Part shown: piece after piece, positions 1,955-32,868 of the stretch | Layout of the letters: the number at the start of each line of letters is the position of its first letter | Position numbering within the stretch: position 1 is the stretch's first letter | Source: a virus | Strand: one strand, 5' to 3' | DNA length: 32,868 nt | IMG/VR virus record: IMGVR_UViG_3300045988_034103 | Program-made: the position numbers and the translations under genes | Notes under the pieces: generated by a model | What the model saw: only the letters and a program-made list of their open reading frames with translations | What the model was told of the DNA's origin: nothing | Database searches by the model: none

Positions 1955-2055
1955 AAATTTCCGGTGGCGTAACCGCGCTTCACCCACGTTTAGAACCGCC
2001 CCGGTCGCGCACATGAGGGGGGGTAACGCAAAATTCAGGAGGTGGCATACATTAT

Positions 2056-3010: not shown

Positions 3011-3120
3011 CGGTCTAAACTCCCACGCGGTTATCATCGACGAATTGCACGCCATTCGTGACCGCAATTTGTACGAAGTTATGAAGCAATCGACTCCAGC
3101 CGCCGACAGCCCATCGTGAT

Positions 3121-4095: not shown

Positions 4096-4099
4096 TAAC

Positions 4100-5381: not shown

Positions 5382-5385
5382 CGTT

Positions 5386-5973: not shown

Positions 5974-6008
5974 AAACCCACATTTTTTGAATTTATGGAG
6001 GTAAAAAC

Positions 6009-6545: not shown

Positions 6546-6610
6546 CCTCCGTTTCCCTGACGGGCTACGAAATCGTCAAGCTGGTCAAGGCATCCCGCGC
6601 ATCTTCCGAA

Positions 6611-16673: not shown

Positions 16674-17924
16674 ATGATCGGAAAAACAAACGCATTATCG
16701 GCGGCGGGGGTGGAATTATCCCTTGTCGTTTCTGTTACATCCGGCGCGGCAGTAACCGCGACGAAAAGCGGCAAGACCGTCACAGGCACGGCGGCGGGCG
16801 GCTCTTGCGTTCTGAAACTGCCGGAGGCGGGTACGTGGAGCGTGTCGGCAACGCTGAACGGGCAGACCTCCAACACGCAAAGCGTGTCCGTAAAAGACAG
16901 CTACGCCGTGTCCCTGACGTTCTTTAGCGCGACGATCACGGTAACGGTCGATTCCGGCGCATCCGTCGCGTTGAAAAAGGACGGCGTAACAGTCCAGACA
17001 AAGACCAGCACGGGGACGGCGGTATTTACCGTAACGGAAACCGGCACATATACAATCGTCGCCACAAAGAGCGGGCAGAGCGTCAGCGGCACGGTCAACG
17101 TCGTATCCAGCACGACAACGTACGCGCTGACCCTCTCTTTTGTTTCGTCTACGCTGAACAATAACGAATGGAGCGTCATCAAGTCCGTATCTGATGCAGG
17201 ACAGGGCGCGTCCTATTGGAGCATTGGCGACCGCAAGGCGGTCACGCTGAACGGCACAGTCGGCGCGTTGACATTATCCAACGTCACGACGTATGTGTTC
17301 ATCATCGGATTCAATCACAATTCCAGCGTCGAGGGCGCAAACCGCATTCATTTCCAGTTAGGCAAAACGGCGCTGTCCGGCGGCACAGACGTTGCGCTAT
17401 GCGACAGCAAATATAATTCGCAAGTATCCGCGACGGGCTATTTTTCCATGAACAGCAGCGGAACAAACTCCGGCGGATGGAACTCGTCGCAGATGCGCAC
17501 AAAAATTTGTGGTACAAGCCTGTCAAGCTATTCCGGCACGATCATTGCGGTCATCCCGGCAGCGCTCCGCGCGGTGCTGAAATCTGTGACGAAGTACACG
17601 GACAACACAGGCAACAGCAGCGCCGCAAGCGCGGTGACAGCGACCACAGATTACTTTTTCCTGTTATCGGAATACGAAGTATTCGGGTCTACCACTTACG
17701 CAAACAGCAACGAAGCCAGCAAACAGGCGCAGTATTCGTATTACAGCGCCGGAAACAGCAAGGTCAAATACAATCACAGCGCGACAAGTACAGCCGTTTG
17801 TTGGTGGCTCCGTTCCCCGTGTGCCAGCATTTCCGCGTATTTCGTGTTTGTGCTTACTGACGGCACGGTCGGCAGCTACTACGCGGTCTACTCGTTTGGC
17901 TTTGCCCCCGGCTTTTGTGTATAA
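16674..17924 (+). CDS. DGR target protein 1: tail fibre / receptor-binding protein with two Ig-like repeats, a DUF6273-like domain and a C-terminal variable region
   Basis: 416 aa. The last 45 aa (TAVCWWLRSPCASISAYFVFVLTDGTVGSYYAVYSFGFAPGFCV) are encoded by VR1, which matches the TR except at TR adenines. Confidence 0.9.
   Translation: MIGKTNALSAAGVELSLVVSVTSGAAVTATKSGKTVTGTAAGGSCVLKLPEAGTWSVSATLNGQTSNTQSVSVKDSYAVSLTFFSATITVTVDSGASVALKKDGVTVQTKTSTGTAVFTVTETGTYTIVATKSGQSVSGTVNVVSSTTTYALTLSFVSSTLNNNEWSVIKSVSDAGQGASYWSIGDRKAVTLNGTVGALTLSNVTTYVFIIGFNHNSSVEGANRIHFQLGKTALSGGTDVALCDSKYNSQVSATGYFSMNSSGTNSGGWNSSQMRTKICGTSLSSYSGTIIAVIPAALRAVLKSVTKYTDNTGNSSAASAVTATTDYFFLLSEYEVFGSTTYANSNEASKQAQYSYYSAGNSKVKYNHSATSTAVCWWLRSPCASISAYFVFVLTDGTVGSYYAVYSFGFAPGFCV
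17788..17920 (+). repeat. DGR variable region 1 (VR1)
   Basis: Ungapped alignment to TR 18412-18544 (offset 624). I count 21 mismatches, all opposite TR adenines. Confidence 0.92.
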
Positions 17925-17964
17925 TTCGGAATTCAAGCCTTGCGCCCTCAATGGGCGCACAGGC
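17923..17964 (+). other. Post-VR1 conserved 14-mer AATTCGGAATTCAA plus hairpin (putative DGR target-recognition structure)
   Basis: 14-mer at 17923-17936. Stem TGCGCCC (17941-47), loop TCAAT (17948-52), stem GGGCGCA (17953-59). The same 14-mer and loop follow VR2. Confidence 0.65.
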
Positions 17965-17980
17965 GGCAGGAGGTCACGAA

Positions 17981-18379
17981 ATGTCAGTACCGAAGTCACG
18001 ACGCGGAGAAAGCCCGGCGGAGTATATCAACCTCGCCCGCGAAATCTACGTTTTCACGTACAACCGCGTCAGAATCTTACCGAAAAGCTACACGTTCTAT
18101 TTCTCGCTGCCGCTTTACAATGCGGCGCGCGAGGCGTACCGGCTTATCAAGACGGCAAATCTGATTTACATTCACAACGACGCAGACAAGCAGAACCGCA
18201 AGGAATTGTACGAACGGGCGCAAGGCTATTACAATTCCATGCTGGACGTGCTTGACCTTGCGTATATGAATGTCAACCATGAAAAATTGCCGTCGAACGT
18301 CCTGAAAGAATGGGTCAAGCTGATAACCGACGAACTCGCACAAATATCAAAGATCAAGCGGAGCGACAAAGCGCGATAG
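17981..18379 (+). CDS. avd: DGR accessory variability determinant (Avd-like four-helix-bundle protein)
   Basis: RBS ggcaggagg. 132 aa, basic, predicted helical. Lies between the target gene and the TR, as in Bordetella phage BPP-1. Confidence 0.7.
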   Translation: MSVPKSRRGESPAEYINLAREIYVFTYNRVRILPKSYTFYFSLPLYNAAREAYRLIKTANLIYIHNDADKQNRKELYERAQGYYNSMLDVLDLAYMNVNHEKLPSNVLKEWVKLITDELAQISKIKRSDKAR

Positions 18380-18411: not shown

Positions 18412-18544
18412 GTACAGCCGTTAATTGGTGGCTCCGTTCCCCGAATGCCAGCAATTCCGCGAATTTCGTGAATGTGAATACTGACGGCACGGTCAACAAC
18501 AACAACGCGAACTACTCGAATGGCTTTGCCCCCGGATTTTGTAT
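18412..18544 (+). repeat. DGR template repeat (TR)
   Basis: Non-coding copy of the VRs. Read in the VR frame it gives TAVNWWLRSPNASNSANFVNVNTDGTVNNNNANYSNGFAPGF, with 12 AAY codons. I count 33 adenines. Confidence 0.92.
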
Positions 18545-18772
18545 GGACATAGGGCAGACCGATTAGCCGACAGGCAAAAAGCAGTCCATATACAAAAGGG
18601 GAATATAACCCCTCTGACGGCATCCGCCGCCGGACAAACATATACCACGATACGGAAAGCCGGACGCTACTTGCATGGACGTGGGGCGCGCGTTCCCTGC
18701 GTTTTCATGGCTACGCCGTTACGCATTTTAGACAGCGCGACAAGAAAGAAATGTACGAGGTATCATTTTCCC

Positions 18773-19921
18773 ATGAACAGCACAGAAAGGCACGAAGCGC
18801 GGTATCAGCGGCGCAAAGCCGCGCGCATAGAGAAGAAAGCAAAAGCGTTGAAAGAATTCGGGGATTTCGGCGCGGTGTTTTCTTTTGACCATCTTTACGC
18901 ATCATACCGCGCGTCTATCAAGGGCGTTGGGTGGAAAGCAAGCACACAGCGTTATAAATCGTCCGCCCTCGCCCACATCGCAAAGACGCAGGAAGAATTA
19001 CTGACCGGAAAATATCGGTCGCGTGGATTTTACGAATTTGATCTTGTAGAACGGGGCAAGCCGCGCCACATCCGAAGCGTTCACATTTCCGAACGTGTTG
19101 TGCAGCGCTGCTTATGCGATTACTGCCTCGTCCCTGCATTATCAAAGTCGTTTATCTACGACAATGGCGCAAGCCTGCCCGGAAAAGGCTATGACTTCGC
19201 CGTATCCCGCGTGACGCGGTTTCTTGCAGATCATTACCGCCGGTACGGAAACGAGGGCTATGCCCTGATTTTCGATTTCTCAAAGTATTTTGACACGGCG
19301 CATCACGAACCGATATTTGAACAATTCCGGCGCAGCGGAATCGACGGCAACCTCGTCCGCTTGTCGGAATATTTTATTTCAAACTTCGGGGACGTGGGGT
19401 TAGGGCTTGGCAGTCAGGTTTCACAGATTTCCGCGCTTGCCTTGCCGAACAAGATCGACCATTTCATAAAAGACGTTCTGCGCATGAAACGGTACGTCCG
19501 ATACATGGATGACGGTTGCATTATCGACCGGTCAAAGAAGCGGCTCGAAAACTGCCTGCATCATTTGCGGCGGCTCTGCGCCGCGCACGGTATCCGCCTG
19601 AACGAAAAGAAAACACAGATCATCAAATTGACGCGCGGATTCTCTTTTGTAAAAGTCCGTTTCCGATACGGAAGAACCGGCAAGATCGTCCGCAAAGCGA
19701 CGTATCAGGGAATTCGGCACATGATGCAGAAATTGAAGATTTTCCGAAGATGGGTAGACCGGGGCAGGATGGCAGCGGCGGACGTAGCAGCTTCCGTCAC
19801 ATCATGGCTCGGTCACATGAGAAGATTTCACTCCTACTTTGCCGTACAAAAGGTATTGCGGCAGTACAATCAACTGTTTCCGGGAGGTACGTATGGACTA
19901 CATCACTTACAAACGGTATAA
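18773..19921 (+). CDS. DGR reverse transcriptase
   Basis: YMDD at 19502-19513. LGLGSQVSQ fits the GxxxSQ signature of DGR RTs. Lies downstream of the TR. Alternative ATG at 18707. The track ORF from 18539 runs through the TR end. Confidence 0.9.
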   Translation: MNSTERHEARYQRRKAARIEKKAKALKEFGDFGAVFSFDHLYASYRASIKGVGWKASTQRYKSSALAHIAKTQEELLTGKYRSRGFYEFDLVERGKPRHIRSVHISERVVQRCLCDYCLVPALSKSFIYDNGASLPGKGYDFAVSRVTRFLADHYRRYGNEGYALIFDFSKYFDTAHHEPIFEQFRRSGIDGNLVRLSEYFISNFGDVGLGLGSQVSQISALALPNKIDHFIKDVLRMKRYVRYMDDGCIIDRSKKRLENCLHHLRRLCAAHGIRLNEKKTQIIKLTRGFSFVKVRFRYGRTGKIVRKATYQGIRHMMQKLKIFRRWVDRGRMAAADVAASVTSWLGHMRRFHSYFAVQKVLRQYNQLFPGGTYGLHHLQTV

Positions 19922-21503: not shown

Positions 21504-21741
21504 CAAACTTCTCTGCTACGGAGTTTTGTTGATAGACTACAAAACGACATCAACGACGCTGGATTTATGCTATATCGCAGTCGCAAACAACTATACGGGC
21601 AGCTTGCCGTATTTGACTGCGCTGATAGCGTTATTGCAGGCGGCTACTGCTACGGTGCTATCTTTTGCCCTGAACAAAAGCAAGGCAGAAAACACGGCGG
21701 GCGGTATCGTGTACGAAACCACACTGAAACGGGACTGTTAA
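21415..21741 (+). CDS. Putative holin-like membrane protein (two hydrophobic helices)
   Basis: 108 aa. AALAAAWEFVKGYLSFSKLLCYGVLLI and LPYLTALIALLQAATATVLSFAL. Lies upstream of the holin and endolysin. Confidence 0.5.
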   Translation: MTRKRALRRMKIKAALAAAWEFVKGYLSFSKLLCYGVLLIDYKTTSTTLDLCYIAVANNYTGSLPYLTALIALLQAATATVLSFALNKSKAENTAGGIVYETTLKRDC

Positions 21742-21755
21742 AAGGAGGAAAACAC

Positions 21756-21965
21756 ATGAACGAAATCATTCTGAAACGAATCGGCGCGCTTTTGAGCGTC
21801 AAAAGCATTGTGACGCTTGCGCTGACGGCGGTATTCGCGTACTTAGCCGTTACGAAGCAGATCAGTCAAGAATTCATGGTCGTTTATACGGTCGTGATTG
21901 CGTTCTACTTCGGCACGCAGACGCAGAAGATCAGCGACGCAGTAGAAAGCAAGGGGGCGCAATAA
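21756..21965 (+). CDS. Holin (small, two TM segments)
   Basis: RBS aaaggagg. 69 aa. Two hydrophobic segments and a charged C-terminus. The stop overlaps the endolysin ATG. Confidence 0.7.
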   Translation: MNEIILKRIGALLSVKSIVTLALTAVFAYLAVTKQISQEFMVVYTVVIAFYFGTQTQKISDAVESKGAQ

Positions 21966-22762
21966 TGCCCCTGACAGTTGAACAGCGGCTTATCAGCCGC
22001 AATTTCCGGCGATGCACGGGGAAGCGGAAAATTGAATACATCGTGATTCATTATTTCGGTTCGCTCGGTACGGCGGCAGCAGTTGCAAACTATTTCAATA
22101 CGCCGGGTATTCAGGCATCCGCGCATTATTGCTTAGACGAAGGAAGCACGGTCTATCAGTGCGTCGAGGACAACAATATTGCTTGGCATTGCGGCACATC
22201 CGGCGCATACGTTCACCCGCGATGCAGGAATGAAAACAGTATCGGCATTGAAGTCCGACCGTATAAGCTGGACAAATCTACGGCGCGTTCCGCAGCGCCC
22301 GCAGATTGGTATTTCCCGCCGGAGATCGTGGACAACCTCGTTGTATTCACACAAATGCTGATGCAGAAATACAACGTCCCGCTTGAAAACGTCGTGCGGC
22401 ATTACGACGTTACGGGGAAATGGTGTCCGCGTCCGTGGATGGGCGACGATACGAATACCTATTACGGCACGTCCGGCAATGAACAATGGAAGAAATTCAA
22501 GGAACGGTTATCCGGGGAGGAATTGGACATGAACATTGAAGAAGCACGGAAACAGTTGACCTCTTGCGCCGACACGGGCGACACGCCCTCCGCATGGGCG
22601 CGCGACGCGGCGGAATTCTGCAAGCGAAAAGGCATTTTCAACGGCGACGGCGCAGGCAATTATGGATGGCAGCAGCCCATTACGCGCGAAGCCGTCGCAC
22701 AGATTCTTTACAACGCTTTTGAAAGCGCGGGTATGCTTGACGCTATCCCGGACAAAAAATAA
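21965..22762 (+). CDS. Endolysin, N-acetylmuramoyl-L-alanine amidase (Amidase_2/PGRP fold) with C-terminal binding region
   Basis: IEYIVIHYFGS...ASAHYCLD...NNIAWHCG...NSIGIEV...VVRHYDVTGKWCPRPW. Confidence 0.9.
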   Translation: MPLTVEQRLISRNFRRCTGKRKIEYIVIHYFGSLGTAAAVANYFNTPGIQASAHYCLDEGSTVYQCVEDNNIAWHCGTSGAYVHPRCRNENSIGIEVRPYKLDKSTARSAAPADWYFPPEIVDNLVVFTQMLMQKYNVPLENVVRHYDVTGKWCPRPWMGDDTNTYYGTSGNEQWKKFKERLSGEELDMNIEEARKQLTSCADTGDTPSAWARDAAEFCKRKGIFNGDGAGNYGWQQPITREAVAQILYNAFESAGMLDAIPDKK

Positions 22763-24079: not shown

Positions 24080-24478
24080 ATGAAAGCGGCGTATCCTATC
24101 GTTATGACAAAAGGGAAAGAACACATCATTGTGTATGTGCCGGATTTTAATATCAATACGGAGGGCGCGGACTACGCTGACGCTATGGAGATGGCACGCG
24201 ATGCAATCGGGCTTGTCGGAATCGACATGGAAGATGATAACGAGAAGCTGCCGAAGCCGTCCAGCATTGACGAGGCAAAAAGCGGAGCGGAAAACGGCAT
24301 TGTCACGCTTGTAGACGTTGACTTTACGGAGTATCGCAGGAAGAATGACATGAAAACTGTACGCCGCAACGTATCGCTTCCGTCGTGGCTGGACGTTGCC
24401 GCGAAAGAAGCAAATGTAAACGTATCGGCGGTATTGGCACGGGCGCTGAAACAGGAATTAAACCTCGCGGAAAGATAA
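24080..24478 (+). CDS. hicB: HicB-family antitoxin with C-terminal RHH-like DNA-binding tail
   Basis: RBS aaggagg. YPIVMTKGKEHIIVYVPDFNINTEGADYADAMEMARDAIGL...LPKPSS... then RRNVSLPSWLDVAAKEANVNVSAVLARAL. Confidence 0.85.
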   Translation: MKAAYPIVMTKGKEHIIVYVPDFNINTEGADYADAMEMARDAIGLVGIDMEDDNEKLPKPSSIDEAKSGAENGIVTLVDVDFTEYRRKNDMKTVRRNVSLPSWLDVAAKEANVNVSAVLARALKQELNLAER

Positions 24479-24492
24479 ACAATAAAGCAGCA

Positions 24493-24516
24493 AGGGGCGG
24501 GAAACCGCCCCTTTTT
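24493..24516 (+). terminator. Rho-independent terminator after hicB
   Basis: AGGGGCGG-GAAA-CCGCCCCT followed by TTTTT. Confidence 0.75.
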
Positions 24517-24537
24517 GCTATGTATGGAGGGCATGAC

Positions 24538-25584
24538 ATGGGCGAACAATACAAGCAGTTGCAGTTTCGGGACAGACTGAAAATTGAAGCGCGTCTGAAT
24601 ATCGGATACAAGCCGAAGCAGATTGCCGCAGACCTCGGCGTACACGTCAGCACGATCTATCGGGAAGTGAAGCGCGGGACGTACACGCACATGAATTCAG
24701 ACCTGACAACGGATATTCGGTACAGCCCTGAAATTGCCGAGGCACGTTATCAAGAAAGCCTGTCAGCAAAGGGCGCGCCGCTGAAAATCGGAAAGAATCA
24801 TGCCGTCGCCGCGTTCATCGAAGATAAAATAATAAACGACGATTATTCCCCGGCGGCGGTCTGCGCGCTTCTGCATCAGGAAGAATTTGCGCATTTCGGT
24901 ATGACGTTCTGCCGCGCCACGCTTTACAAGTACATTGACGAGGGCGTATTTCTGGAACTGACCAACGCCGACCTCCCGGAAAAGGGCGAACGGAAAAAGG
25001 AATACAAGAAAGTCCGCCCGCGTCAGAAGCGGGAAAGCCGGGGAACGCCGATTGACGAACGCCCGGAGATCATCAACGAACGCAAAGAACCGGGGCATTG
25101 GGAAATGGATACCGTCGTAGGAAAGAAAAAGACAAAGGCGCGCTTGCTTGTGCTGTCTGAGCGGGTGACGCGCCGCGAGATCATCATACGCATAAAAGAC
25201 GGCAGAGCGGAAACCGTCGTGCAGGCGCTTGACCGGCTGGAACGGATTTACGGCGCGGCGTTCTATACGGTATTCAAGTCGATCACGGTTGACAACGGTT
25301 CGGAATTTGCGGATGCGGACGGAATCGCACGCAGCGCGATCAACGCCGAAGAAAAACGCACGGCGTTGTATTATTGTCATGCGTACTGCTCTTGCGAACG
25401 CGGAACGAACGAAAATATAAACCGCATGATTCGTCGGCGCTTCCCGAAAGGCACGGACTTTGAAGCCGTCACGGACGCGGACGTTGCCCGCGTGGAAGAT
25501 TGGATAAACAACTATCCCCGTGAAATCCTCGGTTTCCAGTCATCCGCGCAGATGTTCAGCGCCGCGTTCGCCGCCGCTGCATAG
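24538..25584 (+). CDS. IS30-family DDE transposase
   Basis: N-terminal HTH (IAADLGVHVSTIYREVKRG). DDE triad contexts HWEMDTV, ITVDNGSEF, CERGTNENINRMIRR. 348 aa. No terminal inverted repeats found by eye. Confidence 0.9.
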   Translation: MGEQYKQLQFRDRLKIEARLNIGYKPKQIAADLGVHVSTIYREVKRGTYTHMNSDLTTDIRYSPEIAEARYQESLSAKGAPLKIGKNHAVAAFIEDKIINDDYSPAAVCALLHQEEFAHFGMTFCRATLYKYIDEGVFLELTNADLPEKGERKKEYKKVRPRQKRESRGTPIDERPEIINERKEPGHWEMDTVVGKKKTKARLLVLSERVTRREIIIRIKDGRAETVVQALDRLERIYGAAFYTVFKSITVDNGSEFADADGIARSAINAEEKRTALYYCHAYCSCERGTNENINRMIRRRFPKGTDFEAVTDADVARVEDWINNYPREILGFQSSAQMFSAAFAAAA

Positions 25585-25668: not shown

Positions 25669-25697
25669 TTGACATTTGCGGATGCGCCGTTTATTAT
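25669..25697 (+). promoter_or_regulatory. Putative early promoter (TTGACA-17-TATTAT) embedded in an imperfect inverted repeat
   Basis: -35 at 25669-25674, -10 at 25692-25697. Flanking arms TTTCGCA..TTAA (25654-25664) and TTAA.TGCGAAA (25697-25708). Confidence 0.5.
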
Positions 25698-27005: not shown

Positions 27006-27377
27006 ATGCGTCAGCGCAAAGCGGTCTGCAATCCGATTATTGACTGGAAGGATTCGGACGTTTGGGACTATATCGAATCCGAAAAAATCCCGGTAAACCC
27101 GCTTTACAAGTGTGGTTACTCCCGCGTTGGGTGCGTCGGCTGCCCTATGGCTGGAAAAGCAGGCAGGAACGCAGAGTTTGCCCGCTATCCGAAATATCAG
27201 GAAGCGTATATACGAGCGTTCGGGCGAATGCTGGAAGAACGGAAGCGGCGAGGAAGGACAACAACGCAAAGTTGGGAAACCGGGCGGGACGTGTTTCATT
27301 GGTGGATAGAGGACGGCGTTTTACCGGGGCAGATTGAACTTGACGATCTTCTTTCCGACGAGGACTATGACGAATGA
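27006..27377 (+). CDS. PAPS reductase-like protein, C-terminal fragment (homology in this frame starts near 26915)
   Basis: CNPIIDWKDSDVWDYIESEKIPVNPLYKCGYSRVGCVGCPMAG is the characteristic C-terminal region of phage PAPS reductase-like proteins. Confidence 0.75.
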   Translation: MRQRKAVCNPIIDWKDSDVWDYIESEKIPVNPLYKCGYSRVGCVGCPMAGKAGRNAEFARYPKYQEAYIRAFGRMLEERKRRGRTTTQSWETGRDVFHWWIEDGVLPGQIELDDLLSDEDYDE

Positions 27378-27592: not shown

Positions 27593-28032
27593 AAAAGCTG
27601 TATTCAAAGCAATTCGGCAGCGAGGTCTACGCGCTTGCGCCGGAACAGTTGAAAGTATTCGCGTCGAGCGGGTACGAAGTCCCAACGCCGGAAGCCGTCA
27701 TTGCAGACGCGGGCGCTATCCGCATCGTTCCCCCGGCAGGAAAGCGCGCGTATGCGGTATTCAAATTCACGACAGGCGCTTTTGTCGTTCGCACGTCCGC
27801 CGAAACGATGACGATGCAGGACGTCGGCGCGTTCGTCGGTGAGGTCGTGCAAGCGGCTATCGTCTGCAAGCTGGCGGAAAACGCTGACCCGGACAGACCG
27901 AAGCCGGAAGCGGCGGGCGGTCAAATCGCGTCGGCGGTCGCGGCGCTGACGGCGGCGATCAGGCGGGCGACCTGCGAAGCGCACGCGGGCGGCGATCAGG
28001 CAGCGGCGGAAAGCCCGGAGGTAACGGAATGA
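27589..28032 (+). CDS. Hypothetical protein
   Basis: 147 aa. ATGA overlap with the upstream gene. No family recognised. Confidence 0.55.
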   Translation: MKKLYSKQFGSEVYALAPEQLKVFASSGYEVPTPEAVIADAGAIRIVPPAGKRAYAVFKFTTGAFVVRTSAETMTMQDVGAFVGEVVQAAIVCKLAENADPDRPKPEAAGGQIASAVAALTAAIRRATCEAHAGGDQAAAESPEVTE

Positions 28033-28418
28033 CATTCGGAACGTGTAGGTACTGCGGGCAAGTCGTGAATCTGGACTGCGAAGAAGAAACGCAGGCGGAA
28101 GCCGATATTGCCGCTTCCGAAAAATGCGAATGCTACGACGCACGGCATGAACGGAATCTGCGCAAGCAGATCACGGCGGCGCAAAACCGCATTCGCAAGA
28201 TTTTCGGGGACGATGCTGCAAAACTGGGCTTTGCCCCGATTGCTGCCGAAGAACCGCTGCAACTCCTGAACGCTATCGCGGAGCAGACCGCACGCGGGTT
28301 TATCACGTCGGCTACGATCAACGTGCGCGGGCTTTGCAAGGCGAAAATCACGATGACCACAAAAGAGAAAATCAAGGTCGAGCGCAGCGAAACGAAAACG
28401 TACCAGTTGGAGGAATGA
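28029..28418 (+). CDS. Hypothetical protein with N-terminal Cys cluster
   Basis: 129 aa. CRYCGQ...C...CEC. Overlapping start and stop with neighbours. Confidence 0.55.
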   Translation: MTFGTCRYCGQVVNLDCEEETQAEADIAASEKCECYDARHERNLRKQITAAQNRIRKIFGDDAAKLGFAPIAAEEPLQLLNAIAEQTARGFITSATINVRGLCKAKITMTTKEKIKVERSETKTYQLEE

Positions 28419-28424
28419 CGGCAA

Positions 28425-29047
28425 ATGAACGAAGCGTATAACATTGACTGCATGGAATTTATGCGCCGCGTTCCGAGTAAATATTTCGATTTGGCGGTTG
28501 TAGACCCGCCGTACGGGATTGAAAAGGGGTTCAAGGCGACAAGCCGGGTTAGGCGCTACGGGCAGACAAAGACCGCGAACGACGATAAACCGACGGCGGA
28601 ATACTTCACCGAACTGTTCCGTGTCAGCAAGAATCAGATTATTTGGGGCTACAATCACTTGTCGGATTTGCTGCCGCCGATGAAGGAATTCATTTTCTGG
28701 TACAAGCGTCAGCCCGTGGACAGCTATTCCGACGGCGAATTAGCATGGACGAGTTTCAATAAAACGGCGAAATGCTTTGACCATGCGTATTTCGGGAACG
28801 TCGGCGCGGATGACGTGCGGATTCATCCCATGCAAAAGCCGGTTGCGCTGTATTTGTGGCTTTACGCGAAATACGCGCATCCATACGACAAGATTTTTTG
28901 GATTCACACCTTGGGAGCGGGTCAAGCCGAATTGCCGCTTACGATATGGCGCTTGATTTCATCGGGTGCGAGATCGACGCAGATTATTTTCAGAAGCAAG
29001 AACAACGTTTTGAAGAACATACAGCGCAGCAGCGGTTATTCCTATGA
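28425..29047 (+). CDS. DNA N6-adenine (N6/N4 family) methyltransferase, frameshifted at T6 28894-28899
   Basis: Motif IV VVDPPYG near the N-terminus. After the shift, ORF 28856-29047 reads LDSHLGSGSSRIAAYDMALDFIGCEID (motif I). The track ORF 28425-29075 ends in out-of-frame sequence. Confidence 0.8.
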
Positions 29048-29068
29048 CCGCCGCAAGGAGGGTACATC

Positions 29069-29266
29069 ATGGTAACAATCGGATGCGGCAGGACGGTCAA
29101 GCCCGTCACGTTCAGCGTCTTAGGCAAAGACGGCAAAGATAAAGCCGTTCGGGGTACGGTTTCGTACATCCATCCGGCGCGCCGCTATTGCATTCTTGAA
29201 TTTGCCGTGCGGGGCGGCATTCTCCGCGAATCATTCCAACTGATAGACGGCGAAATTGCCGAATAG
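29069..29266 (+). CDS. Hypothetical protein
   Basis: RBS aaggaggg. 65 aa. Confidence 0.5.
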   Translation: MVTIGCGRTVKPVTFSVLGKDGKDKAVRGTVSYIHPARRYCILEFAVRGGILRESFQLIDGEIAE

Positions 29267-29284
29267 AGAAAGGCAGGGGCTTAC

Positions 29285-29476
29285 ATGGAACGCAGACCTA
29301 TGAAGCTATACCTCGTCAGACACGCCGAATACGGCGAAACAACTGCAAACGGGCGCTGCAAATATGATGCGATCATCGCCGCCGCGCGGCAATGGCGCGC
29401 CCGATGGACGCAGATAGCCCGCGAATGTGAATTTATTGTGCTTGCCGAAGAAGAAGCGGCAGGCACAGAGCAATGA
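29285..29476 (+). CDS. Hypothetical protein
   Basis: 63 aa. The stop overlaps the start of the next gene (ATGA). Confidence 0.5.
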   Translation: MERRPMKLYLVRHAEYGETTANGRCKYDAIIAAARQWRARWTQIARECEFIVLAEEEAAGTEQ

Positions 29477-30159
29477 CCGCGCAGCAGCGGCGGAAACGCC
29501 GCATGATACGCCGGTTCGCGCCGACGGTTGCGCTGTGCGCCGTCATCACAATCATTGCGGCGGCTTGTGTCTGCGCGCTGGCGCGCCCGGTAGAGCGGGA
29601 CACACAGCCGGTAACAGCAAACACGGAAACAGTCGCCGCAGCAACAAAAATCGCCCCTGCGATCACAAAAGCGACGGAGCAGATCACGAAAACGCCGGAA
29701 ACGATCACGCCGGAAGCGCCGGAAGAAACAGAGCCGGAAGAACAGCCGGAGGAAGCGCCGGAAGAAATCAGCCGTTATGCGGCGCTGAACGTCACGGAGG
29801 ACGATATTGATATGCTGGCAGCGCTTGCATGGCACGAAGCGCGCGGCGAACCGTTTGACGGGCAAGTTGCCGCTGTCCTGACTGCGCTGAACCGCTGCTT
29901 GTCGCCGGAATTCCCGGATACGGTCGAAGAGGTCGTTTTCCAAAAATACGGGGACGTTTGGCAATTCAGCCCCGCGCCGTATCTTTGGACAGCAGAACCG
30001 ACACAGACGCAGTACGACGCAGTTTATACCGCGCTGCACGACACAGATTACATTCTTCCCGCCGAAGCGGTATTTTTCAGCACAAAGGCATACAACGACA
30101 ATATCGTTGCAGTCATCGGAAATCACATCTTTTGTTCTATTGAGGAGGTCACACAATGA
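29473..30159 (+). CDS. SleB/CwlJ-like cell-wall hydrolase (Hydrolase_2) with N-terminal membrane anchor and Pro/Glu/Thr-rich linker
   Basis: TM FAPTVALCAVITIIAAACVCAL. Linker TPETITPEAPEETEPEEQPEEAPEE. Catalytic-domain pattern MLAALAWHEARGEPFDGQVAAVLTALNRCLSPEFPDTVEEVVFQ...QFS. Confidence 0.75.
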   Translation: MTAQQRRKRRMIRRFAPTVALCAVITIIAAACVCALARPVERDTQPVTANTETVAAATKIAPAITKATEQITKTPETITPEAPEETEPEEQPEEAPEEISRYAALNVTEDDIDMLAALAWHEARGEPFDGQVAAVLTALNRCLSPEFPDTVEEVVFQKYGDVWQFSPAPYLWTAEPTQTQYDAVYTALHDTDYILPAEAVFFSTKAYNDNIVAVIGNHIFCSIEEVTQ

Positions 30160-30794
30160 AAATCACACGCAGGACAGAGCAAGAAATCAATATTTCGGAA
30201 CTGAAAGCGGCGATCAAGGAGGGGCGCGGGCTGGAGGTCATCCGCCCGCACGACGAAATCACGCTTGCGCTTGACACGGGCGAAACGATTACGCCGGTTT
30301 GCGGCTACGTCGGCAAGCATAGCGCCCGATTTGTTTTCAAAGATTGCCTCCGCGAAATGTGGCAGATGAACAAGACCATGACCAACAAGGGCGGATATTT
30401 CAGAAGCGAAGCCCGCAGACACGTCCTCGAAGATATTCTGCCGCATTTGCCCGCCGAACTGCGCGAAGCGATCACGCCGCGACACTTATGCGAGGAAATC
30501 GACGGCGAAACGTACGAATATTTTGATTCGTTGTGGTTGCCGTCGGCAACGGACGTTTTCGGCAATGACCCGGATGGATGGTGGAAAGAAGAAACAGACA
30601 GCTTCCAGTTACCTATTTTCAAAGCGGAACGCGACCGCGTGAAGGAAGTTCCCGGAAACGGCACATATCCGTACTGGCTCCGTTCCCCGTTTGCCGGCAG
30701 TTCCGCGATTTTCGTGGGTGTGTATACTGACGGCACGGTCGACAGCGGCAGCGCGGGCTACTCGTGTGGCTTTGCCCCCGGCTTTGATTTGTAA
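30156..30794 (+). CDS. DGR target protein 2 (remote): 212-aa DUF6273-like protein with C-terminal variable region
   Basis: ATGA-coupled to the hydrolase gene. C-terminus YWLRSPFAGSSAIFVGVYTDGTVDSGSAGYSCGFAPGFDL is encoded by VR2. No signal peptide or TM segment evident. Confidence 0.88.
   Translation: MKITRRTEQEINISELKAAIKEGRGLEVIRPHDEITLALDTGETITPVCGYVGKHSARFVFKDCLREMWQMNKTMTNKGGYFRSEARRHVLEDILPHLPAELREAITPRHLCEEIDGETYEYFDSLWLPSATDVFGNDPDGWWKEETDSFQLPIFKAERDRVKEVPGNGTYPYWLRSPFAGSSAIFVGVYTDGTVDSGSAGYSCGFAPGFDL
30675..30785 (+). repeat. DGR variable region 2 (VR2)
   Basis: Ungapped alignment to TR 18429-18539 (offset 12246). I count 18 mismatches, all opposite TR adenines. The pattern differs from VR1. 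Confidence 0.9.
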
Positions 30795-30835
30795 AATTCG
30801 GAATTCAAAACTTCCCCGGCTCAATGCCGGGGAAG
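30795..30835 (+). other. Post-VR2 conserved 14-mer AATTCGGAATTCAA plus hairpin
   Basis: 14-mer at 30795-30808. Stem CTTCCCCGGC (30811-20), loop TCAAT (30821-25), stem GCCGGGGAAG (30826-35). Confidence 0.65.
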
Positions 30836-30861
30836 TAGCCGCAAGGAGGCAAGACCATACC

Positions 30862-31761
30862 ATGAATATAGGGCTTATCGACGTAGATAGCCACAATTTC
30901 CCGAATCTTGCGCTTATGAAGATTTCCGCATTCCACAAATCGCACGGCGATCATGTCGAGTGGTGGTGGGGATTCGGTGACTACGACATTGTTTATATGT
31001 CGAAGGTGTTTGACGATACATATTCAAAAGACGTTGACGAACCATTGAATGCAAGGAAAATCATAAAAGGCGGAACGGGATACGGACTTAACGGCAATCT
31101 GCCGAAAGAAATCGAACACATTTACCCTGATTATTCCCTATACCCGGAATTGACGAAAGACACAGCATACGGGTTTCTGACAAGAGGTTGCCCACGACAC
31201 TGTTCTTTTTGCATCGTTGGCGACAAAGAGGGCTTGCGGAGCAGAAAAGTCGCAGACTTGTCGGAATGGTGGCACGGGCAGCGATATATAAAGCTGCTTG
31301 ACCCGAATATAACAGCCTGCAAAGATCAGCTTGACCTTCTGCGGCAACTGGCAGATAGTGGCGCGTGGGTCGATTTTACGCAAGGCGTTGACTGCCGGAC
31401 ATTGACGAAGGAAATCATTCTGTCCCTGAACGCCGTGAAAACGAAAATGATTCATTTTGCGTGGGATTTCATGGAACAGTCTGACGCAGTAGTGAAAGGA
31501 CTTGAATTATACGCGCAGCACGGCACGATCACGGACGAACGAAAACGCCGGGTCTACGTGCTTACGAACTACAATACGACGCAGGCGGAAAATCTACATA
31601 GGATTTACACATTGCGGAGCATGGGCTATGACCCATACATTATGATCTACGACAAGCCCCATGCACCGCGTGAAATACGACTTTTGCAAAGATGGGTAAA
31701 CAACAAGATCATTTTCAGGAAATGCGAACGCTTTGAAGATTACGACCCGAAGCGGCGCTGA
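30862..31761 (+). CDS. Radical SAM protein (phage-type, function unknown)
   Basis: RBS aaggagg. CxxxCxxC cluster in LTRGCPRHCSFCIV. 299 aa. Confidence 0.8.
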   Translation: MNIGLIDVDSHNFPNLALMKISAFHKSHGDHVEWWWGFGDYDIVYMSKVFDDTYSKDVDEPLNARKIIKGGTGYGLNGNLPKEIEHIYPDYSLYPELTKDTAYGFLTRGCPRHCSFCIVGDKEGLRSRKVADLSEWWHGQRYIKLLDPNITACKDQLDLLRQLADSGAWVDFTQGVDCRTLTKEIILSLNAVKTKMIHFAWDFMEQSDAVVKGLELYAQHGTITDERKRRVYVLTNYNTTQAENLHRIYTLRSMGYDPYIMIYDKPHAPREIRLLQRWVNNKIIFRKCERFEDYDPKRR

Positions 31762-31772
31762 CGGAGGCTGAA

Positions 31773-32006
31773 ATGAACAAATACATTGGAAAAATCATCA
31801 TCGTCACAAATATGCGGAAAATCCCGCGTTCGTGCGCGGAATGCGGATACTATGACGGCATGGGAAACCGCCCCGGCGGGCGCTACAACGATGGCATTTG
31901 CACAGCGGGCGCGTCGATTTACAGCACACGCGGCATTCGGGTAACAAAAGAACGGCTGAAAAACTGCCCGCTGCACATGATCGGGAGGGCTGACGATGGA
32001 TTTTGA
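31773..32006 (+). CDS. Hypothetical Cys-rich protein
   Basis: 77 aa. CAECGYYDG...C...CPLH. Confidence 0.5.
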   Translation: MNKYIGKIIIVTNMRKIPRSCAECGYYDGMGNRPGGRYNDGICTAGASIYSTRGIRVTKERLKNCPLHMIGRADDGF

Positions 32007-32406
32007 TTATTCCGGGCTATACGTATGTGACCCACAGAAAAACACGCTATGCAACAAGCGAAATTGCGGAAACCCCTGCACGATGACCCGCCACAAGGAA
32101 TTTGCAAAAGATGGAGGAACAGATATGAACGTGCAACGTGCGATTGAAATTCTGAATCCCGCGCATCGGGAACATTACGAAAGCATTGAACCGGTAAACG
32201 AAGCCTGCCGCATGGGGATTGCGGCGTTGTCGTACCGCGTTCGGGAAAAACCGGAATACCTTCCAGCGCACCCCGCGCCCACTTTAGCCTGCAAGCGGTG
32301 CGGCAGCGTCAAACACTTGCACAATGCAGACGGCGCGCAGAACGCATTCTGCGGGCAATGCGGACAGGCTATTGACTGGACGGATGCGGCGGAGAGGGAC
32401 GCATAA
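31996..32406 (+). CDS. Hypothetical protein with C-terminal zinc-ribbon (CKRCG...CGQCG)
   Basis: 136 aa. Followed by a strong terminator. Confidence 0.55.
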   Translation: MDFDYSGLYVCDPQKNTLCNKRNCGNPCTMTRHKEFAKDGGTDMNVQRAIEILNPAHREHYESIEPVNEACRMGIAALSYRVREKPEYLPAHPAPTLACKRCGSVKHLHNADGAQNAFCGQCGQAIDWTDAAERDA

Positions 32407-32410
32407 AAAA

Positions 32411-32440
32411 GCCGCCGACGTTTTCGCAGAACGTCGGCGG
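32411..32440 (+). terminator. Rho-independent terminator ending the early operon
   Basis: GCCGCCGACGT (32411-21), loop, ACGTCGGCGG (32431-40). Preceded by an A-run, followed by T-containing sequence. Confidence 0.7.
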
Positions 32441-32591
32441 TGCTTGCCTCGGAAAAGACAAGGTTACTCATACCTTATATATAATATCACGTTCCGGGGC
32501 GATATGCAAGCGAAAAGCGGCGGGAAACCGCTATTTTCGGGCTTGTATGGGATAGTAACTTAACGACCACAGAGCCGCCGGAGGTAAAGGC

Positions 32592-32868
32592 ATGAAAACA
32601 ATCTATCGGGAAAAGCGCTACTACTGCGGGGAGTACCTCGACGTATATATTTTTCCTACATACCGGCAATCGAACGGACGGCGCAGCCGGAGCAAGCCGA
32701 CAACCGCCGCGCAGAAGAAATTAAATCAGCGCCACAGGGAAGAAAAACTTGTCAGACTGCTTCACGCGAACTTCACGCCGGATGATCTTGAAATTCACCT
32801 GACATATACCGTTCAGCCGGAAAGCGAAGAAGAAGCCGCCCGGAATGCCCGCAATTACATACGCCGCA
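32592..32868 (+). CDS. HUH rolling-circle Rep, N-terminal part (runs off the window end; continues at base 128 after removing the 127-bp overlap)
   Basis: RBS ggagg. MKTIYREKRYYCGEYLDVYIFPTYRQ... In frame with 1-633 (32742-32592 = 150). Confidence 0.8.
   Translation, partial: MKTIYREKRYYCGEYLDVYIFPTYRQSNGRRSRSKPTTAAQKKLNQRHREEKLVRLLHANFTPDDLEIHLTYTVQPESEEEAARNARNYIRR
32742..32868. repeat. Terminal direct repeat, copy 2 (identical to 1-127)
   Basis: See copy 1. Confidence 0.95.

What the first reader, a model, noticed from the sequence alone, without database searches (positions are those of the whole stretch)
30156..30835. Second, remote DGR target in the early/non-structural region, about 12.2 kb from the TR
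VR2 (30675-30785) matches TR 18429-18539. I count 18 mismatches, again all at TR adenines, and the substitution pattern differs from VR1. The AAY codons read F, S, I, G, Y, D, S, G, S, G, C. One TR therefore appears to service two genes independently. The host ORF is only 212 aa and has no visible signal peptide or TM segment. It shares the DUF6273-like core with target 1 but lacks fibre or Ig domains. It sits far from the virion genes. It is translationally coupled (ATGA) to a membrane-anchored SleB-like hydrolase upstream and is followed by a radical SAM gene. A DGR-diversified protein that is not obviously structural is unusual in a phage. It could be a second detachable receptor-binding or adhesin subunit, a diversified targeting partner for the hydrolase, or an intracellular binder. 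All three options are speculative.
Basis: partly seen in the sequence, partly recalled or inferred. Interest (0 to 1): 0.9.

Follow-up and report, generated by a model that had tools for sequence, protein, structure and literature searches.

The report
Second, remote DGR target in phage
A gut phage uses one mutagenic retroelement to rewrite two genes, its tail-fibre tip and a small lectin-like binding protein encoded 12 kb away; the finding is real and the site is active in nature, but the arrangement is already described in related gut phages and the small protein's job is still unknown.

Summary
VR2 (30675-30785) matches TR (18429-18539) without gaps. All 18 mismatches fall on TR adenines (chance about 5e-14). 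Seventeen are real variable sites; the last (GGA to GGC) is a fixed TR/VR boundary difference.

VR2 is an active target, not a fossil:
- Close relatives' proteins are nearly invariant over residues 1-178 and vary almost only at TR-adenine codons. One 90%-identity cluster holds 7,950 distinct sequences.
- In 10 related contigs plus the window, VR1 and VR2 both match their own diverged TR at non-A sites.
- Both VRs, but not the TR, are followed by a GC-rich hairpin with a TCAAT loop and compensatory stem changes.
- VR1 and VR2 vary independently.

The target is a 212-aa single-domain DUF6273 / C-type-lectin-like protein with no signal peptide. It lies in the early DNA-modification/replication block of a 32.7-kb temperate siphovirus-type phage of gut Oscillospiraceae. 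A membrane-anchored SleB-type hydrolase lies directly upstream in most relatives. The radical SAM gene downstream is an accessory insertion.

This architecture is already published (Wu 2018; phages Toutatis, Lelie, CP11, Shimadzu; Dahlman 2025). It is a new member of a known kind. The small protein's function remains open.

The parts
30156..30794 (+). Target gene 2: 212-aa standalone DUF6273 / C-type-lectin-like protein with no signal peptide or TM segment
   Evidence: Pfam DUF6273 E = 1.1e-11, 45.3 bits against a cutoff of 23.5. AF2 gives a single domain, pLDDT 96.4, pTM 0.91. Foldseek matches the T. ramosa IgA peptidase 9qa6, whose N-terminal domain the depositors' paper names DUF6273, plus C-lectin-like domains and phage DUF6273 proteins. 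Hydropathy is negative for TM segments. 833 homologs were found, mostly 210-211 aa.
30675..30785 (+). VR2, the variable repeat (codons 174-210). Diversified sites span 30690-30766.
   Evidence: 18 of 18 mismatches to the TR are at adenines. 15 related loci show 13-19 A-site changes and 0-1 non-A changes. Protein variation in the clusters is confined to these codons.
30768..30781 (+). IMH-like 3' element GGCTTTGCCCCCGG, identical in TR, VR1 and VR2. It is followed by the fixed VR-specific C at 30782 (A in the TR).
   Evidence: Alignments. The fixed A/C difference is present in all copies examined.
30810..30836 (.). Post-VR2 hairpin/cruciform: ACTTCCCCGGC-TCAAT-GCCGGGGAAGT, about 25 nt after TR/VR homology ends
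   Evidence: DNA fold -15.8 kcal/mol, z = -5.4, 0 of 200 shuffles as good. The TCAAT loop occurs in 40 of 42 VR2 and 25 of 26 VR1 copies, with at least 6 compensatory stem variants; no TR has it.
18412..18542 (+). TR, the template repeat. VR2 uses 18429-18539; VR1 uses the full 131 nt.
   Evidence: It holds 28 adenines in the 111-nt core, including 11 AAY codons, and no stop codon is reachable by A mutagenesis.
16674..17924 (+). Target gene 1 (416 aa): Ig-like/beta-rich N-terminal part plus a C-terminal DUF6273 domain. VR1 lies at 17788-17918.
   Evidence: Pfam DUF6273 E = 7e-13; phrog_37900 E = 4e-103. VR1 mismatches are all at adenines.
17937..17964 (.). Post-VR1 hairpin with the same TCAAT loop and a different stem (GCCTTGCGCCC / GGGCGCACAGGC)
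   Evidence: DNA fold -13.5 kcal/mol, z = -3.4; conserved in relatives.
17978..18379 (+). Avd-like accessory protein candidate (the ORF opens at 17915; the Met is at 17978)
   Evidence: It lies between target 1 and the TR. AF2 predicts a four-helix bundle, pLDDT 70.5. The best Foldseek hits are the Avd-family proteins 2gsc and 2rld and the Avd chain 8ub7_B, with prob 0.98-1.0 but E = 0.1-0.5. No sequence-level match was found.
18539..19921 (+). DGR reverse transcriptase (the ORF opens at 18539; probable ATG at 18707 or 18773)
   Evidence: RVT_1 E = 1.5e-15; phrog_1423 E = 3e-76. Best PDB relative is the DGR RT 8ub7_A, E = 1.3e-19. LGSQVSQ and YMDD motifs are present.
29473..30159 (+). Membrane-anchored SleB-type cell-wall hydrolase (Hydrolase_2); its stop overlaps the target 2 start (ATGA)
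   Evidence: Pfam Hydrolase_2 E = 8e-13; TIGR02869 SleB C-terminal domain E = 1e-16, far below the equivalog cutoff. A TM-like segment lies at about residues 11-41 after a basic N-terminus. It is immediately upstream of target 2 in all clades of 57-95% identity except the L018/L088 lineage.
30862..31761 (+). Radical SAM protein, an accessory gene inserted just after the VR2 hairpin. It is a neighbour, not part of the DGR.
   Evidence: phrog_9298 E = 7e-105. It is present in only 6 close loci (window, L001, L007, L008, L013, L077) and absent from most relatives.

Best explanation
VR2 is a genuine, currently active second target of the phage's single DGR.

Shown: the cassette target1-Avd-like-TR-RT (16.7-19.9 kb) has an intact DGR-type RT. 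The same TR matches two VRs with adenine-only differences. Both VRs sit at the 3' end of DUF6273 / C-type-lectin-like domains. In nature both are hypervariable at exactly the TR-adenine codons, and both keep pace with their own TR at non-A sites.

Inferred from the BPP-1 paradigm (Guo 2011): TR RNA is reverse-transcribed with adenine misincorporation. The cDNA then replaces VR sequence in trans at any site that offers TR homology, the GC-rich IMH-like 3' element and the downstream hairpin. VR2 has all three. The TR lacks the hairpin and carries A instead of C at the boundary, which keeps transfer one-way.

The product is a 212-aa, single-domain, cytoplasmically made lectin-fold binding protein. 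Its variable residues (about 10^16 possible variants) form a diversified ligand-binding surface. It is encoded in the early DNA-modification/replication operon, usually directly after a membrane-anchored SleB-type peptidoglycan hydrolase, and never in the tail module.

Least secure step (inference only): I favour a role outside the tail adsorption apparatus, as an early-made binder acting either inside the cell (counter-defence or host takeover) or at the envelope together with the hydrolase, over a role as a second tail receptor-binding protein.
For: A-only mismatch pattern, P about 5e-14. In two clades, protein clusters with 7,950 and 6,125 distinct members vary almost only at TR-adenine codons. 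At DNA level, 15 loci show 13-19 A-site changes against 0-1 non-A changes. Ten related contigs plus the window carry VR1, TR and VR2 together: of 904 non-A sites, 2 (VR1) and 10 (VR2) mismatch, the VR2 ones mostly in columns upstream of VR2's shorter homology, and the TRs differ between clades, so this is concerted evolution. The shared post-VR spacer and TCAAT-loop hairpin has covarying stems and is absent after the TR. The RT has LGSQVSQ and YMDD motifs, and its best PDB relative is the DGR RT. An Avd-like four-helix bundle is predicted. VR1 and VR2 are independent (permutation p = 0.71). The fold is confident and lectin-like. There is no signal peptide or TM segment. The early-module position is conserved in this family, Shimadzu, Toutatis and Dulem virus 34. 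A promoter-like site at 25669-25697 heads the operon, with no + strand terminator-like site before the window end. Published precedent: PMC5758913, PMC11792537, 10.1101/2024.10.15.618418, PMC12629997.
Against: No direct evidence of retrohoming in this genome: there are no reads and no cDNA. The window is an error-prone consensus with 7 homopolymer indels in 5.3 kb, so its exact VR2 sequence may be a population consensus. The hairpin loop (5-nt TCAAT) and the IMH-like element (not GC-only) differ from the tested BPP-1 elements, so their function is inferred by analogy. For the functional lean: in phages, DUF6273 domains are mostly distal domains of fibres and receptor-binding proteins, and virion proteins also lack signal peptides, so a virion role is not excluded. 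Expression timing is inferred only from gene order and a consensus promoter scan.
Confidence: 0.85

Rival explanations
1. Virion accessory adhesin: the small protein is a detachable second receptor-binding or decoration subunit that is encoded outside the late operon but assembled onto the particle. The DGR would then tune two virion binding specificities, for example host surface and mucus or another host.
For: Structural neighbours include the DUF6273 distal domains of tail-collar fibres and receptor-binding proteins, and standalone phage DUF6273 proteins. Lack of a signal peptide is compatible with cytoplasmic virion assembly. Egorov & Atkinson (10.1101/2024.10.15.618418) and Baykov 2023 (PMC10743442) favour a receptor-binding role for such targets.
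Against: The gene is never in the structural module in five divergent lineages. It always lies among early DNA-modification and replication genes, upstream of the ArpU-like late regulator. No recognisable virion-attachment domain exists: the whole protein is one globular domain. VR1 and VR2 show no within-genome similarity, so there is no sign of a shared receptor.
Confidence: 0.33
2. Targeting partner of the hydrolase: the small lectin-fold protein is a separately encoded, diversified cell-wall-binding subunit for the adjacent membrane-anchored SleB-type hydrolase. This would be a two-gene lysin in the manner of PlyC (comparison from memory).
For: The Hydrolase_2-to-target 2 adjacency, with overlapping stop and start, is conserved across clades of 57-95% identity. 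A peptidoglycan-lytic gene of another type lies 3-8 genes upstream in Shimadzu (cell wall hydrolase), Toutatis (3D domain) and Dulem virus 34 (Slt70-like).
Against: A lineage without the hydrolase keeps the target in the same position and still diversifies it (L018-21 and L088; P0038 versus P0069 with 1,844 cluster members). The topologies do not match: the hydrolase domain is exported behind a TM anchor, while the target has no export signal. 4-nt overlaps are common in this genome. A canonical small-TM-protein plus amidase lysis cassette exists elsewhere, at 21567-22762.
Confidence: 0.17
3. Intracellular counter-defence or host-takeover binder: an early-expressed cytoplasmic lectin-fold protein is diversified to keep binding a variable host (defence) protein.
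For: No export signal. The gene lies in the early operon beside an orphan DNA methyltransferase, PAPS reductase and MazG-like genes. Dahlman et al. [quoted passage not shown] Intracellular DGR-diversified C-lec sensors are proposed in bacteria (PMC10907252, from its abstract).
Against: This rests purely on guilt by association. There is no match to known defence proteins in PADLOC, and no anti-defence library was available. From memory, all experimentally characterised phage DGR targets bind extracellular ligands.
Confidence: 0.3
4. Fossil or non-functional repeat: VR2 is a relic of an old duplication or homing event and is no longer diversified, or the ORF is a fragment of a duplicated fibre gene.
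For: One relative (L012, UMGS830-type) carries a TGG-to-TGA stop at the first VR2 codon. No read-level data exist for this window.
Against: There is massive VR-restricted diversity among otherwise near-identical genes. Non-A sites track the cognate TR across clades. The hairpin is conserved with compensatory changes. The family is full-length, confidently folded and widely conserved.
Confidence: 0.03

Closest known systems
Faecalibacterium phages Toutatis/Lelie (Toutatisvirus) and prophage CP11: one DGR with a 'large' adjacent and a 'small' remote DUF6273 target (PMC11792537; bioRxiv 10.1101/2024.10.15.618418)
   Same: One TR serves two VRs. Both targets carry DUF6273 with the VR at its C-terminus. 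The large target has Ig-like domains and sits next to Avd/TR/RT. The small target (about 215 aa, Toutatis gp24) lies many kb away (17.5 kb in Toutatis; about 16 kb and 23 kb by the TR/VR coordinates given for Lelie and CP11) among early genes with DNA methyltransferases, a peptidoglycan-lytic-type protein and a replication initiator. Both VRs show variation in alignments of related genomes. Function is unknown.
   Different: The phage lineage differs: Toutatis has a sheath (myovirus), a 55-kb genome and a serine integrase. This window is a 32.7-kb siphovirus-type genome with an rve-type integrase candidate. The small targets are too divergent for tblastn at E = 1e-5. The cassette order differs: in Toutatis the adjacent VR gene is downstream of the RT, here it is upstream of Avd. 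The hydrolase neighbour is directly adjacent here.
Roseburia phage Shimadzu (LR596903) orf43
   Same: The best named-phage homolog with a described DGR: 32% identity over 84% of the protein. It sits in the early module with methyltransferases, a 'cell wall hydrolase' (orf40), Erf, SSB and Rep. [quoted passage not shown]
   Different: The hydrolase is three genes away, not adjacent. The host family differs (Lachnospiraceae). I could not read the primary paper or verify the TR/VR pair myself.
Bordetella phage BPP-1 DGR (mtd-avd-TR-brt) and its target-recognition elements (Guo 2011, PMC3240598)
   Same: Same cassette order for target 1. Adenine-specific mutagenesis. The VR lies at the 3' end of a C-type-lectin-fold domain. 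A GC-rich 3' element is shared by TR and VR and is followed by VR-specific bases. A GC-rich hairpin lies within 4-34 bp downstream, with stem structure (but not stem sequence) and loop sequence conserved. The machinery is shown to act in trans.
   Different: BPP-1 has a single target, the trimeric tail-fibre tip protein Mtd. Mtd is not among the top 50 structural matches of this protein. The loop here is 5-nt TCAAT, not 4-nt GRNA. The IMH-like element is GGCTTTGCCCCCGG, not a GC-only 14-mer.
Gut phages nd4/nd12 with two DUF6273 targets (tentaclin + tgt2; Baykov 2023, PMC10743442)
   Same: One TR with two targets of different architecture. The second target is a single globular C-lec/DUF6273 domain flanked by short helices. 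VR1 and VR2 differ.
   Different: In nd4/nd12 both targets lie inside the DGR cassette near the tail genes, and target 1 has its VR at the N-terminal end. Here the second target is 12.2 kb away in the early module.
Non-adjacent DGR targets in prophages (Wu et al. 2018, PMC5758913) and distal second VRs in four gut prophage species (Dahlman et al. 2025, PMC12629997)
   Same: The general class is one adjacent target plus one non-adjacent target within the same prophage. The smallest targets are lectin folds alone. The second VR lies near DNA methyltransferase genes.
   Different: Those are survey-level statements. They give no analysis of this phage family, of the hydrolase pairing or of the cis elements.

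Membership tests
Diversity-generating retroelement (DGR): VR2 as a functional target | TR/VR pair whose differences are restricted to TR adenines | tested here: met
   18 of 18 mismatches at A and 0 of 83 at non-A positions, P = 5.5e-14. The same holds in 15 related loci and in 10 related contigs plus the window.
Diversity-generating retroelement (DGR): VR2 as a functional target | DGR-clade reverse transcriptase with the [ILV]GxxxSQ motif and YxDD (motif recalled from memory) | tested here: met
   RVT_1 and phrog_1423 matches. LGSQVSQ at residue 290 and YMDD at residue 322 of the ORF. The best PDB relative is the DGR RNP RT 8ub7_A, E = 1.3e-19.
Diversity-generating retroelement (DGR): VR2 as a functional target | Accessory protein (Avd, four-helix bundle) next to the TR | tested here: inconclusive
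   No sequence match in Pfam, NCBIfam or PDB, and no similarity to Toutatis Avd. The single-sequence AF2 model is a four-helix bundle with pLDDT 70.5. Its top Foldseek hits are the Avd-family proteins 2gsc and 2rld and the Avd chain 8ub7_B, with prob 0.98-1.0 but E = 0.14-0.5. This leans towards yes.
Diversity-generating retroelement (DGR): VR2 as a functional target | IMH-type 3' element: a GC-rich stretch identical in TR and VR, followed by VR-specific bases that set directionality | tested here: met
   GGCTTTGCCCCCGG is identical in TR, VR1 and VR2. Then comes a fixed C in the VRs against A in the TR, after which the sequences diverge. The composition is not GC-only as in BPP-1. Function was not tested.
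Diversity-generating retroelement (DGR): VR2 as a functional target | GC-rich hairpin/cruciform 4-34 bp downstream of the VR, with stem structure and loop sequence conserved | tested here: met
   An 11-bp stem at 30810-30836, z = -5.4. The TCAAT loop occurs in 40 of 42 VR2 and 25 of 26 VR1 copies, with at least 6 compensatory stem variants, and is absent after the TR. The loop is 5 nt and not GRNA, so this is a variant of the BPP-1 class.
Diversity-generating retroelement (DGR): VR2 as a functional target | Hypervariability in natural populations confined to the VR | tested here: met
   Clusters of 7,950 and 6,125 distinct sequences at 90% identity. The aligned members vary almost only at TR-adenine codons.
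Diversity-generating retroelement (DGR): VR2 as a functional target | Demonstrated mutagenic retrohoming (cDNA, RT dependence) | not testable with these tools
   This needs reads from one population or genetics in a lysogen.
Pfam DUF6273 (PF19789), C-type-lectin-like variable domain | Score above the Pfam gathering threshold, and a lectin-like fold | tested here: met
   45.3 bits against a cutoff of 23.5. The best PDB match is T. ramosa IgA peptidase 9qa6, E = 1.6e-4; its N-terminal domain is named DUF6273 in PMC12402451. Next come Lcl and CD23 lectin domains at weak E-values. BFVD DUF6273 proteins match at E down to 1e-16.
Mtd-type tail-fibre tip receptor-binding protein (BPP-1) | Mtd-like architecture (N-terminal trimerisation/attachment domains plus a C-lec domain; recalled from memory) and a position in the tail module | tested here: not met
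   The protein is a single 212-aa globular domain. No Mtd entry appears among the top 50 PDB fold matches. The gene lies in the early module. Oligomeric state was not tested.
Two-gene (PlyC-like) lysin with a separately encoded binding subunit | Physical complex between the catalytic and binding subunits; genes in the lysis cassette | not tested
The canonical lysis cassette is elsewhere, at 21567-22762. The hydrolase is absent from one lineage that keeps the target.

The most novel reading that the evidence does not exclude
The small lectin-fold protein is not a virion receptor-binding protein at all. Instead it is an early-expressed, cytoplasmically made binder that the phage hypermutates for a non-adsorption purpose. 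It could neutralise or sense variable host proteins (counter-defence), or it could direct the co-encoded membrane-anchored peptidoglycan hydrolase to variable cell-wall structures. That would extend phage DGR biology beyond tropism switching. The recurrent block [peptidoglycan-lytic enzyme + DNA methyltransferase + small DUF6273 target + Rep] in at least four divergent Clostridia phage lineages would then mark a conserved functional module.
Probability: 0.4. Interest if true: 0.8.

Novelty: new member of a known kind. Interest (0 to 1): 0.36.

Why it matters
DGRs are the only known natural machines for targeted protein hypermutation in prokaryotes and their viruses. In phages they are understood almost entirely through tail-fibre tropism switching. 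A second, remote target in the early gene block is very common in gut metagenomes: thousands of distinct variants of this one small protein are on record. This shows that phages also invest hypermutation in a protein of unknown role. The family offers a tractable case:
- the target is a small, confidently folded single domain;
- both VRs are visibly active in public data;
- the partner hydrolase is conserved;
- a prophage whose small-target protein is 93% identical sits in a cultured Oscillospiraceae isolate assembly (POC01).

Working out the function would settle whether phage DGRs act only in adsorption, or also in lysis, cell-wall targeting or counter-defence. The finding as stated, however, repeats an architecture already published for related gut phages.

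Tried and rejected
1. Fossil VR or duplicated fibre fragment: rejected on population diversity, concerted evolution with the TR and a full-length conserved family.
2. Stop-codon recoding or a decaying element as the cause of the broken TerL, portal and capsid ORFs: rejected. All differences from a 99.4%-identical relative with intact genes are single-base homopolymer indels.
3. Hydrolase_2 as the phage's endolysin, making target 2 part of the lysis cassette: rejected as the simple reading. A small-TM-protein plus amidase cassette lies at 21567-22762, right after the DGR.
4. Radical SAM gene as a functional partner: rejected. It is present in only 6 close loci.
5. ATGA overlap as evidence of specific coupling: discounted, because 4-nt overlaps recur at 630, 27374, 28029 and 29473.
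6. Shared ligand or co-conversion of VR1 and VR2: no support (permutation p = 0.71, n = 11).
7. Identity with prophage CP11 of PMC11792537: could not be shown. No window 18-21-mers were found in the held supplement text, and the TR-VR geometry differs.
9. The genome-collection scan with the 50-sequence alignment failed for lack of a conserved stretch and was repeated with 14 sequences.
10. NCBIfam and PADLOC gave nothing for target 2 or its small neighbours.
11. The Shimadzu primary paper is not held.
12. Nucleotide search of the phage collection with 28000-32868 found only one trivial hit.
Full report
**Observation.** TR 18429-18539 and VR2 30675-30785 align without gaps over 111 nt. There are 18 mismatches, every one at a TR adenine, and none at the 83 non-A positions. 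With 28 adenines in the TR, the chance that 18 mismatches all fall on adenines is 5.5e-14. A scan of both strands finds exactly three copies: VR1 (17805-17915, also 18 A-only mismatches), the TR and VR2. VR2 is in frame and occupies codons 174-210 of the 212-codon ORF 30156-30794. No A-containing TR codon can mutate to a stop, and the TR encodes about 10^16 protein variants. One refinement: the 3'-most 'mismatch' (TR GGATTT against VR GGCTTT) is the same in every VR1 and VR2 copy of every relative. It is a fixed TR/VR boundary difference, not mutagenesis.

**The genome.** The window's first and last 127 nt are identical, so this is a complete 32,741-bp circular or terminally redundant genome. 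All genes listed are on the + strand:
- Replication and regulation: Rep, MazG-like, ArpU/sigma-like regulator, HNH.
- Packaging and head: TerS, TerL, portal, protease, capsid.
- Tail: tape measure, Prophage_tail protein, a fibre protein.
- DGR: target 1 (16674-17924), Avd-like ORF, TR, RT.
- Lysis: a small TM protein plus an amidase endolysin (21567-22762).
- Integration: an rve-type integrase or transposase.
- Early block: small genes, a PAPS-reductase fragment, DNA methyltransferase, two small ORFs, Hydrolase_2 (29473-30159), target 2, radical SAM, two small ORFs, then back to Rep.

The broken TerL, portal and capsid ORFs are due to seven single-base homopolymer indels relative to a 99.4%-identical relative with intact genes. 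They are sequencing or assembly errors. Close relatives are prophages in gut Oscillospiraceae/Clostridia genomes, including a 249-kb contig of isolate POC01.

**Is VR2 active?**
- A search with the 212-aa protein returns 833 homologs, mostly 210-211 aa. Single 90%-identity clusters hold 7,950, 6,125 and 1,844 distinct sequences.
- Aligned members of two such clusters are almost invariant over residues 1-178. They vary at the codons that contain TR adenines.
- At DNA level, 15 IMG/VR loci show 13-19 changes at TR-adenine positions and 0-1 elsewhere.
- Loci anchored on the amidase gene gave 10 further contigs that carry VR1, TR and VR2 together, with TR-VR2 distances of 9.4-12.3 kb. The TRs differ between clades, yet each VR matches its own TR at non-A sites. 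Mismatches number 2 (VR1) and 10 (VR2) of 904 sites, the VR2 ones mostly in columns upstream of VR2's shorter homology. This concerted evolution requires continuing transfer from the TR into both sites.
- VR1 and VR2 of one genome are no more alike than VR1 and VR2 from different genomes (9.2 against 9.6 of 24 sites, permutation p = 0.71). They are diversified independently.

**Cis elements.** Both VRs end in GGCTTTGCCCCCGG, shared with the TR, followed by the VR-specific C. Next comes a shared spacer (TAA(A)ATTCGGAATT...) and then a GC-rich hairpin with the loop TCAAT. The stems differ between VR1 and VR2. Across all fetched loci the loop is TCAAT in 40 of 42 VR2 copies and 25 of 26 VR1 copies. 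Stems are 7-12 bp, with at least six compensatory VR2 variants. No TR has such a hairpin at that position. As single-stranded DNA the VR2 hairpin folds at -15.8 kcal/mol (z = -5.4) and the VR1 hairpin at -13.5 kcal/mol (z = -3.4). Guo et al. 2011 (PMC3240598) showed for BPP-1 that an IMH element plus a downstream GC-rich hairpin is required for efficient homing and is sufficient to target a heterologous gene in trans. There the stem structure matters but not the stem sequence, and the loop sequence is conserved. The elements here fit that logic. They differ in loop size and sequence (5-nt TCAAT against 4-nt GRNA) and in an IMH-like stretch that is not GC-only.

**Machinery.** The RT has RVT_1 and phrog_1423 matches and the LGSQVSQ and YMDD motifs. 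Its best solved relative is the DGR ribonucleoprotein RT 8ub7_A (E = 1.3e-19). The ORF between target 1 and the TR has no sequence-level match. It is predicted as a four-helix bundle, and its best structural matches are Avd-family proteins, including the Avd chains of 8ub7, at weak E-values.

**The protein.** AF2 with a 50-sequence alignment gives one globular domain (pLDDT 96.4, pTM 0.91). The best PDB match is the Thomasclavelia ramosa IgA peptidase, whose N-terminal domain its authors name DUF6273 (PMC12402451). Weaker matches are Legionella Lcl and CD23 C-type lectin domains. Among viral models the matches are standalone DUF6273 proteins of 160-260 aa and the distal domains of tail-collar fibres and receptor-binding proteins. 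There is no signal peptide or TM segment. An exhaustive search at 50% clustering finds 1,318 relatives, including many full-length proteins of about 205-230 aa down to about 30% identity.

**Neighbourhood.**
- Hydrolase_2 lies immediately upstream of target 2 in every clade of 57-95% identity, except one prophage lineage (L018-21, L088). That lineage lacks the hydrolase yet keeps and still diversifies the target.
- The radical SAM gene is present in only six close loci and sits just after the VR2 hairpin.
- 4-nt gene overlaps are common in this genome, so the ATGA overlap says little by itself.
- The same kind of small DUF6273 gene lies in the early module of Roseburia phage Shimadzu (orf43, with a 'cell wall hydrolase' three genes upstream), Faecalibacterium phage Toutatis (gp24, with methyltransferases and a 3D-domain protein upstream) and Dulem virus 34 (an Slt70-like transglycosylase and a methyltransferase upstream). 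In each case replication genes follow.
- A near-consensus promoter-like site at 25669-25697 precedes the block, and no + strand terminator-like site follows before the window end. This comes from a consensus scan only.

**What is known.**
- Wu et al. 2018 (PMC5758913) reported many phage-associated DGRs with one adjacent and one non-adjacent target inside the same prophage. They also noted that the smallest targets are lectin folds alone.
- Gulyaeva et al. 2024 (PMC11792537) described 'large and small' DUF6273 targets in Lelie and CP11, with variation at both CP11 VRs in alignments of related genomes. They cite the Shimadzu case.
- Egorov & Atkinson (bioRxiv 10.1101/2024.10.15.618418) described the Toutatisvirus second VR gene. 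It lies 17.5 kb from the TR and is a core gene of unknown function.
- Dahlman et al. 2025 (PMC12629997) noted four gut prophage species with a distal second VR near DNA methyltransferase genes.
- Baykov et al. 2023 (PMC10743442) described two adjacent DUF6273 targets.

The finding is therefore a new member of a known kind. What this analysis adds for this family: population proof of activity at both sites, the shared TCAAT-loop hairpin with covarying stems, the conserved Hydrolase_2 pairing together with its one exception, and the recurrence of a peptidoglycan-lytic gene in the same early block in distant phages.

**Function.** Function is unresolved. The diversification mechanism is well supported. 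The role of the protein is inferred only from fold, lack of export signal and gene context. I lean towards a non-tail role, either an intracellular binder or an envelope-directed partner of the hydrolase. A virion accessory adhesin remains a serious rival.

Noticed in passing
window 1-127 and 32742-32868: Identical 127-nt direct repeats at the two ends of the window. The sequence is a complete circular or terminally redundant 32,741-bp phage genome, so VR2 is also only about 4.4 kb upstream of TerL across the junction.
   Followed up: partly
window 2016-6451 (TerL 2441-4095, portal 4040-5179, capsid 6009-7189): TerL, portal and major capsid ORFs are broken by seven single-base homopolymer-length differences relative to a 99.4%-identical relative (L078) that has intact 565-, 446- and 399-aa ORFs. 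These look like sequencing or assembly errors, not decay or recoding. The PAPS-reductase fragment at 27006-27377 (123 aa against 301 aa in relatives) may have the same cause.
   Followed up: yes
window 30862-31761: The radical SAM gene (phrog_9298, E = 7e-105) is an accessory insertion directly after the VR2 hairpin. It is present in only 6 of about 20 close relatives. Its function was not examined.
   Followed up: partly
L012 2867-2869 (IMG/VR UViG_3300029549_000040); probably also L078: The first VR2 codon (W174, TGG) is TGA in this relative. This non-adenine change truncates the small target inside the TR-homologous stretch, and a homing event would be expected to repair it.
   Followed up: no
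window 17937-17964 and 30810-30836; relatives L001-L085: The post-VR hairpins have a 5-nt loop, TCAAT, in nearly all copies, and not the 4-nt GRNA loop described for BPP-1-class phage DGRs. Two VR2 copies (the L044 type) have the loop GTCTA. This may mark a distinct target-recognition subclass.
   Followed up: partly
window 24385-25584; 24485-24527 and 32508-32550: The only integrase candidate is an HTH_38 + rve transposase-like protein (phrog_4646, E = 8e-128). A 43-nt hairpin-containing repeat occurs at 24485-24527 and, at 72% identity, at 32508-32550. Its role (terminator or att-related) was not examined.
   Followed up: no
window 21567-22762: A canonical lysis pair sits directly after the DGR: a small protein with one TM-like segment, then an amidase endolysin (phrog_1794, E = 2e-31). 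The TM-anchored Hydrolase_2 at 29473-30159 is therefore a second, separately placed peptidoglycan hydrolase.
   Followed up: partly
L023 (Shimadzu), L086 (Dulem virus 34), L087 (Toutatis), window 28425-30794: A recurrent early-region block appears in four divergent Clostridia phage lineages: DNA methyltransferase(s), a peptidoglycan-lytic enzyme of varying type (Hydrolase_2, 'cell wall hydrolase', 3D domain, Slt70-like), the small DUF6273 protein, and then replication genes. No statistical test against background was done.
   Followed up: partly
window 15244-15387 and 11215-11992: There are 24-nt tandem repeats (Gly/Thr/Ser-rich) inside the Prophage_tail protein, and 33- and 66-nt repeats inside the tape-measure gene.
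   Followed up: no
window 25669-25697: A near-consensus sigma-70-type promoter-like site (TTGACA-17-TATTAT, 11 of 12) lies at the head of the early operon that contains target 2. It corresponds to the left end of the prophage in relatives, where the first gene is an HTH_38 protein.
   Followed up: no
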